DNA from: Pecten maximus
Taxonomy: Eukaryota
Direction: 5' to 3'
NCBI RefSeq assembly: GCF_902652985.1
Contig: NC_047017.1
Location: 6,200,001 to 6,264,000 of the forward strand
DNA: 64,000 nucleotides
In this document: positions 30,482 through 45,600 of the stretch, piece by piece
Layout: every line of letters begins with the position of its first letter
How positions within the stretch are numbered: position 1 is the first letter of the stretch
Translations under genes and position numbers: made by a program
Notes under the pieces: model-generated
What the model saw: only the letters and a program-made list of their open reading frames with translations
Told to the model about the DNA's origin: nothing
Database searches by the model: none

Positions 30482-33400
30482 ATGGAAAAGCAGTAAGTGT
30501 GTGGTCATTTGACAATAACTAATTAGATATATAATCGTTCTGTCGTTTAAAATATTTCCAATCCTTTGATTTAGCTGCAGCAGTGCAGGTGGCAGAGTCT
30601 CGATCGTATATAATGAAGGTAGATCTATTTGTACAAGACTGACCCAAAAAATGAACACAAATACGGGCTTTGGAATGATAATAAGACCAGTGATTAGTTT
30701 TCCTAGCCATTTTATGTTCGGCCTTGCCACTTAGTTACGCTCTTGTTTACCTGTGCCTGGTTCGTCAACAAGACAGCATATAGTAATGCAAGGGAGATAA
30801 ATCAAACGAAAATAATTTTTCCGATTATAGCAAAAATACTATTAGGCCAGGAACGTCATGAACGGTTAACCGCTACCAACCCCAATAATGATTCATTATT
30901 TTTCATCATTCATATTTGTATTCCTAATCAAAAAGGGTTATGGATATAATGACCAGTTAATCCTCATATTGTATCTAAAAATATACAGAAATTATTTAGC
31001 CTTTGATGTAACAATTTATCTTTATATTTTAAACTTTATATTTCATCTTTATATTCGCATGTTCTAATGGGGGAGAATATTGCGCTGAAAGTGTTCATTA
31101 CAAAATAGGCACGTTTGGAGTATAAAATGATAACTATATAAACTGGCATCGCTTTAATAAAGTACCCTTGTAAATCCTATTAGCAATAAAACATAAGTGA
31201 ATAGAGAACATTCACGGACAACCGAACATAGTATTCATGTATGTAACTACAACTATTATTTTTTTCCATCGTGTATTTCCTAAAGCCTTTGAACTTATTC
31301 TCTTTTCAGCGACTATATATTCAAGTTGATAGTGATAGGGGACTCTGGTGTAGGGAAATCTTCCTTGTTACTCCGGTTCGCGGTAAGTTTTATGTCACCA
31401 GGTTTCGTTATTTGATAATGTTGATGAAATAGGAAGTCACATGGTGATATATGACTACCAGCATGTCTGTACTTTTAACTTGATCAACAAAGGATATTTA
31501 ATATATAATCGCAAGAAGGTAATGGAATTAAAGAAAACAAGCACCATAAGCTTGAAATATATTCCCATTCAATGTTAAAAATAAATCCAAAACTTTTAAA
31601 TATCTTAAATTATCAGAAAATGAAACAATATTTCTTAAATTATTAAGTAATACATGTAAACAGTTAGTGAACAATAGAAATAATTTTTTGATCAATAAGT
31701 ATTATTTATGTAATCTCGTGAATATATATAAAATAATATTATGTTTCTTCATTGTAATAGAGTAGAAATAAAATGAATAAATAGGGGATGTTTATGATAC
31801 AGTAATATACGTTTCCAGTTTTATTCACATTTCTTAAATTATAGTGTTATCTATCAAACTGATCACCACATGAATACCTCAATCTTTATTTTACAGGATG
31901 ACGTATTCTCGGACACGTACATCGCTACTATTGGAGTAGACTTTGTAAGTTCTCTTATACATACAGATTATCATTTTGTGTCATTCCTTCTACAGCAGTA
32001 AAGATTGTTCGAGATATTTCCGGTGCCCAATGGAAACTATTCATAATTTTTAAATATGCATTGTCTGTCACTAATATGAATTAAAGTGTGTACTAATGTA
32101 CTTATGAAGAGTTGATCCTTTATTTTACAGAAAAACCAAACACTGAAAATTGAGGACAAAACAGTACGACTTCAAATAGTGAGTCTATTTTACATATTTT
32201 AGATTGTTTTTTTGGGGGTTTTTTTCGGCAAAAACCTATGGACATATGTACTTAACAACGCACCGACACACCTCTTGTATTGAACGTTAAATATGATTAA
32301 ATCTCACTTTCACCCAATGAATCACCAAAAATTAAGAAGAGCGGTTATTTCAAGTCTAACGGTAATGAGATTGACAAATTCACCTAGTTAATTTTGATAG
32401 TCAATTCACAACTCTTAATAAATACCGTATAAACGAAAGAATGCATATTTTCTCAGCCTGGAGTAATCATCATACAAATTTACTTGGTCAGCAAAGGTCG
32501 GAAAAAAACTCTTCTTACTATAATGAAGACCATCAGGGCTGATATTTATCTCGGTGTTATTTCAAGGTTATATCAATATGACGTCGCTTAATATCCAATC
32601 GTACATGGTATTAAATCTTGTCTATTTGACAGTGGGACACGGCGGGACAAGAGAGTTTAAAAACCATTACGTCGTCATTCTATCGCGGAGCTCATGGTAT
32701 TATGCTGGTCTATGACGTCACTGATATGGTAAGTAACGGTAAATCACAATTACCATGCTTAAATAGAATGTGTAAATACAAAATACATGGTCAGTGTCTT
32801 GAAATATAAGCTGTATTTTGGCAAGGGTAAAGGAAGACAAAAGTGGCGAGCTTTGGCGAGCTTATATTTTAAGACACTGACCTTGCATTATATTTATCCT
32901 GCAACAGTCATCAAAAACAATCATTTTGAAGTGAAACGGTGTCAAAACCGATAGAAATATGTTCGCCTTTTAACGTTGTTTCACTTTGAAGTAGGTCAGT
33001 CGAATTAACGCACGTGCTAAGATTCCAAAAATACAGCTGTTTTCCGTCACTGCCGTATACAGCAAAAATATATTTGGTTGGTGTATTCCGAAAATGCGGT
33101 GGCAGTTGCAGGATAAAAATATTTATTAGTTGTATATTTTACGGTGGTGAAACGTACGCGGCTCCTAACGTTAGACCTAGTACACAGGGATTTGTTTAAT
33201 TAAGCCAAATACAGGAGCTAAAATACAAATATATTGTTATACTGATACGTAATCCATTAGGACACTGTATATCACTATTTTAATTTCTTTACTTTTAGAT
33301 AAAGATTTCCCTATAAATAATACATATTTTTTTCAGGCTTTGTTGCAAGTTTGAAGATAGTCCATTAAAACTGGAAAAGAATAAATTTTAAATACGTAGT

Positions 33401-42684: not shown

Positions 42685-45600
42685 ATGGACAAGCAGTAAG
42701 TGTGTGGTCATTTGACAATAACTAATTAGATATATAATCGTTCTGTCGTTTAAAATATTCCCAATCCTTTGATTTAGCTACAGCAGTGCAGGTGCGATCG
42801 TATATAATGAAGGTAGATCTATTTGTACAAGACTGACCCAAAAAATGAACACAAATGCGGGCTTTGGAATGATAATAAGACCAGTGATTAGTTTTCCTAG
42901 CCATGTTATTTTCGGCCTTGCCACTTAGTTACGCTCTTGTTTACCTGTGCCTGGTTCGTCAACAAGACGGCGTATAGTAATGCAAGGGAGATAAATCAAA
43001 CGAAAATTATTTTTCCGATTATAGCAAAAATACTATTAGGCCAGTAACGTCATGAACGGTTAACCGCTACCAACCCCAATAATGATTCATTATTTTTCAT
43101 CATTCATATTTGTATTCCTAATCAAAAAGTGTTATGGGTATAATGACCACTTAATCCTCATTGTATCTAAAAATATACACAAATTACTTAGCATTTGATG
43201 TAACAATTTATCTTTATATTTTTTCTTTATAATTTATCTTTATATTCACATGTTATAATGGGGGAGAAAATAGCGCTAACATTGTTCATTACAAAATAGG
43301 CACATTTGGAGTTTAAATGTATCAAATGATAACTATAAAAACTGGCATCACTTTAATAATGTACGTACCCTAGTACACCCTTTTAGCAATAAAAAAGAAG
43401 TGGATAGAGAACATTCACGGACAACCGAATATTACTATTTTTTCTATCGTGTATTTCCTGAAGCATTTCAATTTATTCTCTTTTCAGCGACTATATTTTT
43501 AAGTTTATAGTGATAGGGGACTCGGGTGTAGGAAAATCTTCCCTGTTACTCCGGTTCGCGGTAAGTTTTATGTCATCAGATTTCGTTATTTAATAATGTT
43601 TATGAAATAGGAAGTCACGTGATGATATATGTTTAATTACTACCAGCATGTCTGTACTGTTAACTTGATCAACAAAGGATATTTAATATATATACGCAAG
43701 AACGTAAGGGAATTAAAGAAAACAAGCACCATAAGCTTGAAATAAATCCAAAACTTTTAAATATCTTAAATTATCAGAAAATGAAACAATTTTTCTGAAT
43801 TATTAAGTAATACATGTAAACAGTTAGTGAACAATAGAAATAATTTTTTGATCAATAAGTATTGTTTATGTAATCTCGTGAATATATATAAAATATGTTT
43901 CTTTATTGTAATAGAGTAGAAATAAAATGAATAAATAGGGGATGTTTATGATACAGTAATATACGTTTCTAGTTTTATTCACATTTCTTAAATTATAGTG
44001 TTATCTATCAAACTGATCACCACATGAATACCTGAATCTTTATTTTACAGGATGACGTATTCTCAGACACATACATCTCTACTATTGGAGTAGACTTTGT
44101 AAGTTCTCTTATACATACAGATTATCATTTTGTGTAATTCCTTCTACAGCAGTAAAGATTGTTCGAAATATTTCCGGTGCCCAATGGAAACTATTCATAA
44201 TTCTTAAATATGCATTGTCTGTCACTAATATGAATTAAAGTGTGTACTAATGTACTAATGAAGAATTGATCCTTTATTTTACAGAAAAACCAAACACTGA
44301 AAATTGAGGACAAAACAGTACAACTTCAAATAGTGAGTCTATTTTATATATTTTAGATTGTTTTTGTTGGGGTTTTTTTTCGGCAAAAACCTATGGACAT
44401 AATTATGTACCTAACAACGCACTGACATATCCTCTTGTATTGAACGTTAAATATGATTAAATCTCACTTTCACCCAATGAATCACCAAAAATTAAGAAGA
44501 GCGGTTATTTCAAGTCTAACGGTAATGAGATTGACAAATTCACCTAGTTAATTTTGATAGTCAATTCACAACACTTAATAAATACCGTATAAACGAAAGA
44601 ATGCATATTTTCTCAGCCTGGAGTAATCATCATACAAATTTACTTGGTCAGCAAAGGTCGGAAAAAAACTCTTCTTACTATAATGAAGACCATCAGGGCT
44701 GATATTTATCTCGGTGTTATTTCAAGGTTACATCAATATGACGTCGCTTAATATCCAACCATGGTATTAAATCTTGTCTATTTGACAGTGGGACACGGCG
44801 GGACAAGAGAGTTTAAAAACCATTACGTCGTCATTCTATCGCGGAGCTCATGGTATTATGCTGGTCTATGACGTCACTGATATGGCAAGTAACGGTAAAT
44901 CACAATTATCATGCTTAAATAAAATGTGTAAATACAGAATACATGGTCAGTGTCTTGAAATATAAGCTGTATTTTGGCAAGGGTAAAGGAAGACAAAAGT
45001 GGCGAGCTTTGGCGAGTAGCCAAAAATACAGCTTATATTTTAAGACACTGACCTTGTATTCTATTTATCCTGCAACAGTCATCAAAAACAATCATTTTGA
45101 AGTGAAACGGTGTCAAAAACGATAGAAATATGTTCGCCTTTTAACGTTGTTTCACTTTGAAGTAGGTCAGTCGAATTAACTCACGTGCTAAGATTCCAAA
45201 AATACAGCTGTTTTCCGTCACTGCCGTATACAGCAAAAATATATTTGGTTGGTGTATTCCGAAAATGCGGTGGCAGCTGCAGGATAACAATATTTATTGG
45301 TTGCATACTTTACGGTGGTGAAACGTACGCGGCTCCTAGACCTAGTACACAGGGATTTGTTTAATTAAGCCAAATACAGGAGCTAAAATACGAATATATT
45401 GTTATACTGATACGTAATCCATTAGGACACTGTATATCACTATTTTAATTTCTTTACTCTTAGATAAAGATTTCCCTATAAATAATACATATTTTTTCTG
45501 GCTTTGTTGCAAGTTTGAAGATAGTCCATTAAAACTGAAAATGAATAAATTTTAAATACGTAGTGAACATTTAAAAAAAATATTAACGATTGCTATTTGT

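What the first reader, a model, noticed from the sequence alone, without database searches (positions are those of the whole stretch)
31897..44884. Paralogues differ on the effector surface: switch I, interswitch and switch II
Seen: switch I reads YIYTIG, YISTIG, YIATIG, YISTIG and YISTIG in copies 1-5. The interswitch KIRTV (copies 1-2) becomes KNQTL (copies 3-5). Switch II reads QERF (copy 1), QDRF (copy 2) and QESL (copies 3-5). The P-loop, DTAGQ, NKSD and ETSAK are unchanged. Established: R69/F70 are highly conserved Rab-family residues at the GDI/REP, GEF, GAP and effector interface. Inference: nucleotide binding is preserved while partner recognition is rewired. The ESL forms may escape normal regulators or be poorly prenylated.
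Basis: partly seen in the sequence, partly recalled or inferred. Interest (0 to 1): 0.7.

Follow-up and report, generated by a model that had tools for sequence, protein, structure and literature searches.

The report
Scallop Rab1 copies shedding partner surface
A scallop carries five tandem spare copies of the membrane-traffic switch gene Rab1; one copy changed residues that partner proteins normally touch while keeping its GTP-binding core, two more copies are recombined hybrids of it, and the changes likely reflect loosened selection on a redundant gene rather than a proven new function.

Summary
The motifs are exactly as reported. The window holds five intact, 7-exon Rab1-derived genes of a scallop-specific family (proteins identical to Pecten maximus models); true Rab1 lies elsewhere on the contig. 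But KNQTL/QESL arose once: copies 3 and 4 are crossover hybrids (copy-5 front, copy-2 back, switch inside exon 6), so there are three lineages, not five. The ESL branch evolves fast (28 nonsynonymous:12 synonymous, against 6:11 for copy 2) with dN/dS below 1. Its changes are not enriched in the switch region overall (7 of 21, 6.1 expected), though among family-invariant sites they do favour effector contacts (4 of 11, post hoc p about 0.01-0.03) and spare all G motifs; two Argopecten paralogues independently do the same. R69S is Rab2's natural state, so poor prenylation is unsupported. The ESL promoter lost about 99 nt conserved between copies 1 and 2; all five keep an NF-kB-like site. Spliced RNA contigs laid were copy-2 type. 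Best reading: partner-face constraint released in a redundant, possibly immune-inducible duplicate; rewiring is possible but not shown.

The parts
14340..19300 (+). Copy 1: Rab1-derived gene, 7 exons, 205 aa, IYT/KIRTV/QERF, ends CXC; old lineage with orthologue-like IYT genes in Mizuhopecten and Ylistrum
   Evidence: (identical to P0016)
24979..28081 (+). Copy 2 (lineage X): 7 exons, 202 aa, KIRTV/QDRF, ends CC; conserved, spliced RNA contigs seen
   Evidence: (identical to P0001)
30482..34147 (+). Copy 3: hybrid gene, copy-5-type up to 33532, copy-2-type from 33566; KNQTL/QESL; carries an older diverged tract around exon 2
   Evidence: (identical to P0005)
36553..40108 (+). Copy 4: hybrid gene with the same crossover as copy 3; KNQTL/QESL
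   Evidence: identical to P0006
42685..46454 (+). Copy 5 (lineage Y): full-length ESL gene, 201 aa, long branch, GC donor at intron 5
33533..33565 (+). Crossover interval in exon 6 of copy 3 (33 nt identical in copies 2 and 5, coding the G4 region); same interval in copy 4
   Evidence: diagnostic sites switch from copy-5 type (last 33532) to copy-2 type (first 33566)
32131..32178 (+). Exon 4 of copy 3: interswitch with I47N, R48Q, V50L (Rab1b numbering); counterparts 38090-38137 and 44285-44332
32633..32728 (+). Exon 5 of copy 3: switch II with R69S, F70L; identical at 38592-38687 and 44789-44884
   Evidence: 0 of 96 differences among copies 3-5
14146..14235 (+). Copy 1 promoter block: kB-like site (-194), AP-1-like site (-146), 22-nt element
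24785..24872 (+). Copy 2 promoter block: kB-like site (-194), AP-1-like site (-148), same 22-nt element
30387..30481 (+). Shortened ESL promoter: kB-like site at -95, AP-1-like site and 22-nt element deleted; same at 36458-36552 and 42590-42684

Best explanation
The ESL genes descend from one Pecten duplicate of copy 2, multiplied by unequal crossover, that keeps an intact GTPase core and prenylation end but has likely been released from selection on its partner-binding face, so it would act as a weakly coupled, likely low-output spare Rab rather than a switch rewired to new partners. Shown: single origin, crossover hybrids, raised but sub-neutral dN/dS, intact frames and G motifs, conservative core changes, promoter deletions. 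Inferred: lower or narrower expression from the lost promoter elements; weaker binding to effectors, GEF and GAP from I47N/R69S/F70L; and the reason the core is kept, namely that an expressed Rab with a broken nucleotide pocket would poison Rab1-type traffic (dominant-negative behaviour of nucleotide-binding mutants, recalled), whereas losing the partner face is harmless.
For: Copies 3 and 4 switch from copy-5 type to copy-2 type in exon 6, exon 7 is 0 of 201 different from copy 2. Branch counts with copy 1 as outgroup: Y 28 nonsynonymous:12 synonymous, X 6:11, Fisher p=0.020; Y does not differ from neutral (p=0.15), X does (p=0.0002); 11 ambiguous codons left out. Copy 5 branch 0.21 vs copy 2 branch 0.018, sisters at 94/86. 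Switch-window dN/dS 0.19 vs 0.47 elsewhere; 7 of 21 Y changes in residues 33-81, 6.1 expected; changes also pile up in beta1, the alpha3 loop and the tail. Among 89 family-invariant sites copy 3 changes 9, 4 of them among 11 effector contacts (p=0.012), 0 of 19 G-motif sites. A kB-AP1-22-nt promoter block is the only non-exon match between copies 1 and 2, and ESL copies lost about 99 nt of it. ESL-type exon 5 appears in RNA-run contigs that bridge into unspliced introns (X6, X7, X8, X10, depth 4-14), while the spliced 799-nt contig of X7 carries copy-2 letters.
Against: No stop or frameshift in three ESL copies, where about 4.6 frameshifts would be expected on a fully neutral branch (rough, P0 about 0.01); copy 3 vs 4 differ by 7 synonymous and 3 nonsynonymous changes (p=0.0016), so selection acted after the beta1 changes. 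Changes are clumped (7 adjacent pairs of 19, p=0.0009). Two Argopecten paralogues repeat the contact-biased pattern, one with the same I47N, which is also what repeated adaptation would give. The kB-like site survives in all three. The unspliced contigs may be DNA in the library, and three of those four runs are only guessed to be RNA.
Confidence: 0.55

Rival explanations
1. Neofunctionalisation: the ESL lineage binds a new set of effectors or regulators and is kept, and amplified, for that role in a narrow tissue or stage.
For: Contact-biased, clumped replacements with G motifs spared; intact frames; synonymous excess between copies 3 and 4; copy-3/4-specific letters occur in two DNA runs of different studies; Rab subfamilies are proposed to arise this way, with narrower tissue expression (PMC3192815, passages).
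Against: dN/dS below 1 everywhere testable and lowest in the switch window; broad enrichment null; no ESL orthologue among the relatives found in three other scallop genera; loss of partner constraint predicts the same site pattern; promoter deletions.
Confidence: 0.25
2. Immune decoy or escape array: the family is induced through NF-kB during infection, and copies vary the surface that pathogen enzymes modify, either soaking them up or keeping secretion running.
For: 5 of 6 kB-consensus loci in the 64-kb window sit just upstream of the five genes (15 matches, 1.89 expected, 0 of 100 shuffles), at the same spacing in copies 1 and 2 (dS 0.67); none within 1000 nt upstream of true Rab1's ATG. 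Of seven Rab1 positions I listed as bacterial modification sites, the family changes three (R71K, Y77F, R108K) and ESL a fourth (R69S) (arginines from PMC7275070, passages; Y77 and S76 from abstracts; T72 recalled).
Against: The family differs from Rab1 at 27-36 of 123 conserved sites, so 3-4 of 7 is near chance; the enzymes named come from pathogens of mammals; a consensus match is not induction; the match count is inflated by palindromes and by the duplication itself (only copies 1 and 2 are independent).
Confidence: 0.13
3. Plain pseudogenisation: ESL copies are silent and evolve neutrally; the switch changes are chance.
For: Y branch not distinguishable from neutral by counts (p=0.15); 9 of 21 changes at family-invariant sites, 9.0 expected (that invariant set included copy 2 and the diverged Argopecten genes); promoter loss; GC donor in copy 5.
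Against: No disabling mutation; G motifs spared (p about 0.08 alone); 8 of 9 changes at hydrophobic G-domain positions stay hydrophobic (read lists); synonymous excess copy 3 vs 4.
Confidence: 0.05
4. Copies 3 and 4 are assembly artefacts (haplotypes or mis-joins).
For: Near-identical 6-kb tandem units.
Against: Contigs in DNA runs X1 and X5 carry the letters specific to copies 3/4 in intron 5; copies 3 and 4 differ by 10-17% in one tract; per-contig depth of the shared halves is about 2-3 times that of copy-1 and copy-5-only contigs (weak hint only; the tool says depth is no copy number).
Confidence: 0.02

Closest known systems
Rab1 (Rab1A/Rab1B, Ypt1) subfamily
   Same: Best solved-structure matches; same six intron positions as the genome's own Rab1; G1-G5, F45 and W62 kept; CC or CXC end.
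   Different: About 60% identity to Rab1; separate clade at 99/98; family-wide K58R, R71K, Y77F and others; true Rab1 with QERF is a separate gene about 35 Mb away on the same contig.
Taxon-specific Rab expansions ('RabX', Diekmann et al. 2011, PMC3192815)
   Same: Duplication from an old housekeeping Rab, asymmetric rates, restricted taxon range (passages).
   Different: Here the array is Rab1-derived, scallop-wide, with crossover hybrids and a shared kB-like promoter site; not found described in my searches.
Drosophila X-linked 9C-F rab cluster (RabX2, RabX3, Rab9D group)
   Same: Local cluster of six recent rab duplicates, four 99% identical, with no expression found for the two tested (PMC3402473, one passage): the closest analogue of the ESL copies.
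   Different: Different parent Rab (Rab9-like, recalled); here one member (copy 2) is conserved and spliced, and the family is shared across four scallop genera.
Rab2
   Same: Serine in place of R69 is the natural Rab2 switch II (QESF), in human structures and in this genome.
   Different: Rab2 keeps F70; the ESL genes are not Rab2-derived (intron pattern, tree, best hits are Rab1).

Membership tests
Rab GTPase family | Ras-family G domain with G1-G5 motifs | tested here: met
   Pfam PF00071 E=1.5e-60 for copy 3; motifs intact in 5 of 5
Rab GTPase family | C-terminal double-cysteine prenylation motif | tested here: met
   CXC in copy 1, CC in copies 2-5; sequence only
Rab GTPase family | RabF1, 2, 4, 5 motifs (consensus recalled) | tested here: met
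   IGVDF, (R/Q)LQIW, FYRG(A/S), (L/I)VYDVT, with conservative changes
Rab GTPase family | RabF3 motif (R-F-x-x-I-T; consensus recalled) | tested here: inconclusive
   Met in copies 1-2; R69S and F70L in copies 3-5; S69 is tolerated in Rab2, L70 seen in none of the 23 other Rab exons listed from this genome
Rab GTPase family | REP/GDI binding, geranylgeranylation, GTP hydrolysis | not testable with these tools
   Needs biochemistry; REP binds via RabF1-4 and the C-terminal motif (PMC5902227 section 7)
Rab1 subfamily | Descent from Rab1 | tested here: met
   Same exon sizes 73/48/48/96/132 as the genome's Rab1; top matches Rab1
Rab1 subfamily | Orthology and Rab1-level conservation | tested here: not met
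   27-36 of 123 Rab1-conserved sites changed; own clade; canonical Rab1 exists separately
Pseudogene | Disabling mutation | tested here: not met
   Open frames in 5 of 5; only a GC donor in copy 5
Pseudogene | Neutral evolution and no functional transcript | tested here: inconclusive
   Y branch p=0.15 vs neutral but synonymous excess in copy 3 vs 4; contigs cannot show absence
Positively selected (arms-race) paralogue | dN/dS above 1 on the interface | tested here: not met
   0.09-0.28 in residues 33-81 for all pairs with synonymous changes; counting method only, no branch-site model
NF-kB target gene | Conserved proximal kB consensus site | tested here: met
   (consensus recalled)
NF-kB target gene | Induction and Rel binding | not testable with these tools
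   No raw reads or challenge labels available

The most novel reading that the evidence does not exclude
Scallops run an NF-kB-inducible array of Rab1-derived GTPases whose young duplicates repeatedly and independently (once in Pecten, twice in Argopecten) remodel the partner-binding face and drop residues that bacterial enzymes modify, acting as immune decoys or tamper-proof substitutes for Rab1, with unequal crossover shuffling switch regions onto new membrane-targeting tails.
Probability: 0.13. Interest if true: 0.75.

Novelty: new member of a known kind. Interest (0 to 1): 0.36.

Why it matters
Rab1 is among the most conserved eukaryotic proteins and a frequent target of intracellular bacteria. 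A scallop-wide, apparently undescribed Rab1-derived subfamily gives a natural series for watching how a Rab duplicate leaves its parent's network: here the partner face goes first and the nucleotide pocket stays, three times independently. If that is only relaxed selection, it is a tidy but ordinary case of birth-and-death evolution. If the kB-like sites are real and the changes adaptive, it would be a host-encoded Rab decoy system in an invertebrate, testable with existing challenge RNA-seq.

Tried and rejected
Broad clustering test in residues 33-81, RabF1-5, switch I, interswitch and switch II: all null (p 0.16-1.0). Switch I as part of the ESL shift: rejected; S39Y is an old copy-1 trait shared with Mizuhopecten and Ylistrum genes, S39A recurs in other family members, and the Y branch has 0 changes in 30-45. 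Spliced ESL transcripts: among the listed joints and pieces of 6 RNA or guessed-RNA runs (of 24 runs listed) no joint carried ESL-specific letters; one exon 6-7 joint in X10 lies in the half shared by copies 2-4 and cannot be assigned; the tables were cut (203 and 144 pieces not shown) and contigs show presence, not absence, so this is not counted as evidence. Intron 4 was covered in 4 of 4 runs and intron 6 in 1-2, a possible retained intron; not resolvable. The X7 contig would begin inside the 22-nt promoter element (my arithmetic), but contigs cannot show a start. Proving the hybrid junction from contigs: impossible, the shared 33 nt exceed the word length. Extra array members in 10 kb on either side of the window: none; the exon-5 search of the genome found none elsewhere above the Rab background (28 matches of 57 candidates). 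Profile search for members outside scallops: none among the 120 best listed of 7984 scored; a Pinctada protein with QDRF falls outside the clade on a long branch. Structure and complex prediction were not run: a Rab fold and a Rab-GDI pair would pass by likeness to solved structures, and one job cannot compare ESL with QDRF. Literature: four searches for scallop or bivalve Rab1-like arrays and one on paralogue interference (0 papers) found no description; most subscription papers are not in the library. Earlier scan notes were unrelated.
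Full report
Observation. Six-frame motif search and exon reconstruction give five + strand, 7-exon genes with open frames: copy 1 14340-19300, copy 2 24979-28081, copy 3 30482-34147, copy 4 36553-40108, copy 5 42685-46454. Four of the five proteins are letter-for-letter database proteins labelled Pecten maximus (P0016, P0001, P0005, P0006); the model for copy 5 (P0015) differs by a 7-residue longer exon 2. In 104 of 104 non-family Rab1-type proteins fetched, switch II reads QERF and the interswitch KIRT(I/V), so the ESL/KNQTL states are unusual for Rab1.

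What the genes are. The genome's true Rab1 lies on the same contig about 35 Mb away, with QERF and the same exon sizes. The array is thus a DNA-level Rab1 duplicate family, about 60% identical to Rab1, changed at 27-36 of 123 Rab1-conserved sites. Relatives at 66-83% identity occur in Mizuhopecten (3), Argopecten (4, plus an isoform), Ylistrum (2) and two unnamed Logan records, and form one clade at 99/98 support (21 rows, hybrids c3/c4 and isoform models left out). None has ESL or KNQTL. Copy 5 is sister to copy 2 (94/86), on a branch of 0.21 against 0.018.

Three lineages, not five. At sites where copies 2 and 5 differ, copies 3 and 4 follow copy 5 from the promoter to position 33532 and copy 2 from 33566 on; exon 7 differs from copy 2 at 0 of 201 bases and exon 5 from copy 5 at 0 of 96. 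This is the product expected from unequal crossover between a tandem pair (2, 5), followed by a second duplication (inference). ESL and KNQTL therefore arose once. Contigs of two DNA runs from different studies (X1, X5; 2 of 5 DNA runs listed) carry the intron-5 letters specific to copies 3/4; X1 may be the source of the assembly. Per-contig depths (shared halves 41-57 vs 13-20 for single-copy pieces in X1; 75-86 vs 25-35 in X5) fit two to three copies, a weak hint only since the tool states depth is no copy number.

Selection. Pairwise dN/dS is 0.17-0.41 for all but the copy 4/5 pair (0.65) (Nei-Gojobori counting). With copy 1 as outgroup the copy-2 branch has 6 nonsynonymous and 11 synonymous changes, the copy-5 branch 28 and 12 (11 ambiguous codons, including R69S, left out); that is about 0.15 and 0.66 by my arithmetic, Fisher p=0.020, with the copy-5 branch not separable from neutral (p=0.15). 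In residues 33-81 dN/dS is lower than in the rest of the G domain (0.19 vs 0.47). Seven of 21 Y changes fall in 33-81 against 6.1 expected (two of the 21, D68E and H98N, are polarity artefacts). So the broad claim of switch-focused divergence fails.

A narrower test partly rescues it. Taking the 13 Rab8a residues named as effector contacts in PMC7442826 (one passage) and sites invariant in ten conserved family members, copy 3 changes 9 of 89 sites, 4 of them among 11 contacts (L8I, I47N, R69S, F70L; p=0.012; copy 5 p=0.027) and 0 of 19 G-motif sites. The ten conserved members, each left out in turn, show 0-5 changes each and 1 contact change in 19. Two Argopecten paralogues show 3 of 11 (p=0.038, with Q67K) and 5 of 11 (p=0.004, including I47N again). 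The contact list and the split into conserved and diverged members were chosen after seeing the data, and invariant non-contact sites are mostly core residues, so this pattern is what loss of partner constraint predicts as much as gain of new partners.

Not plain decay. No stop or frameshift exists in three ESL copies, where intron indel rates would give about 4.6 frameshifts (rough). Copies 3 and 4 differ by 7 synonymous and 3 nonsynonymous changes in an older tract around exons 1-3 (p=0.0016), and Y changes are clumped (7 adjacent pairs of 19, p=0.0009).

The prenylation and regulator claims. REP binds through RabF1-4 and a C-terminal motif, and substitutions there tune affinity (PMC5902227, passages and part 1 of section 7; PMC5902221, passages). 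R72A/R82A in Rab1A (R69/R79 here) weakens response to a bacterial GAP and GEF (PMC7275070, passages), so weaker coupling is plausible. But serine at 69 is native to Rab2, in human structures and in this genome, F45 and W62 are kept, and the CC end and a hydrophobic tail motif remain. Poor prenylation is untested speculation.

Promoter and RNA. Copies 1 and 2 (dS 0.67; blastn finds only exon-centred matches inside the genes) share one upstream block: a kB-consensus site at -194, an AP-1-like site at -146/-148 and an identical 22-nt element. ESL copies keep a kB-like site at -95 but lost the other two, about 99 nt in all. Five of the six kB-consensus loci in the window precede these genes (15 matches, 1.89 expected); true Rab1 has none within 1000 nt of its ATG, though its 5' UTR was not mapped. 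Consensus motifs are recalled and matches are not function. In RNA run X7 a 799-nt contig is spliced at all six introns and carries copy-2 letters; X10 has a copy-2 exon 1-2 joint and X9 a copy-2 exon 6. ESL-type exon 5 appears in X6, X7, X8 and X10 on contigs that run into unspliced introns, with at most 3 other letters, so the ESL state is present in other samples; these may be pre-mRNA or DNA. Absence of spliced ESL contigs is not counted as evidence.

Mechanism. Most likely (0.55) the Y duplicate became redundant, lost promoter elements and was released on its partner face, while selection still removed mutations that break the fold or nucleotide pocket; the reason offered, avoidance of dominant-negative products, is inference from recalled Rab1 mutant behaviour. 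Crossover then made two hybrids joining the Y switch region to the copy-2 tail. Rewiring (0.25) and an immune decoy role (0.13) remain open; full pseudogene (0.05) and artefact (0.02) are unlikely.

Comparison and novelty. Taxon-specific Rab expansions are common (PMC3192815, passages), and Drosophila has a similar cluster of recent, partly unexpressed rab duplicates (PMC3402473, one passage). Searches (listings; single passages of PMC13070813 and PMC5333834) found no description of this scallop family; no supplements were read, and gene lists in supplements of scallop transcriptome papers may hold expression data on it. PMC3295573 was searched for residue numbers without a useful hit. Verdict: a new member of a known kind, interest 0.36.

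Noticed in passing
window 44885-44886: Intron 5 of copy 5 begins GC instead of GT (copies 1-4 have GT); either a GC-AG intron or a splice defect.
   Followed up: no
window about 30836-31600: Copy 3 differs from copies 4/5 by 6-17% here against 1-3% around it: a conversion tract from an older ESL-type copy or allele that already had the beta1 changes.
   Followed up: partly
window 45765-46256: Intron 6 of copy 5 is partly duplicated (492 vs 349 nt); contigs in X1, X5 and X14 skip 176-184 nt of it, so it is polymorphic.
   Followed up: partly
window 32773-33117, 38732-39076, 45018-45287 and inverted at 2698-3029: A dispersed repeat inserted in intron 5 of the ESL lineage only; many relatives in RNA-run contigs.
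   Followed up: no
window 28421-28934, 34489-35002, 40447-41163, 46942-47240: A roughly 230-bp unit in one to three tandem copies downstream of copies 2-5; a related stretch follows copy 1 near 19790-19900.
   Followed up: no
window 61937-63176 (+): Signal peptide, Q-rich repeat and an EF-hand-like exon; resembles MCFD2 (recalled; Pfam gave no hit on the exon).
   Followed up: partly
window 50572-50958 (-): Exon with a weak Pfam TAF1_subA match (E=2.6e-5, below cutoff).
   Followed up: partly
L016, L017, L019 (G000:C19): Three Rab5-like switch II exons within 22 kb: another local Rab expansion in this genome.
   Followed up: no
L020 (G000:C3:26294983), L013 (G000:C11:30875419), L007 (G000:C7:23890065): Further divergent Rab exons; L020 and L013 lack the catalytic glutamine of DxxGQ.
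   Followed up: no
P0013/P0012 and P0021 (Argopecten and an unnamed record): Family members with Q67K plus D44N, and with a rebuilt RabF1 (F45V, K46R, I47N, F77A): independent loss of the partner face.
   Followed up: partly
P0020 (Pinctada imbricata): Model with two tandem Rab1-like units with QDRF, outside the scallop clade on a long branch: a separate or older bivalve Rab1 expansion.
   Followed up: partly
window 890-1328, 1987-2391, 7010-7411, 20293-20681, 23039-23366: Minisatellite arrays that create spurious ORFs.
   Followed up: no
window 10205-10215: A sixth kB-consensus site not next to a Rab copy.
   Followed up: no
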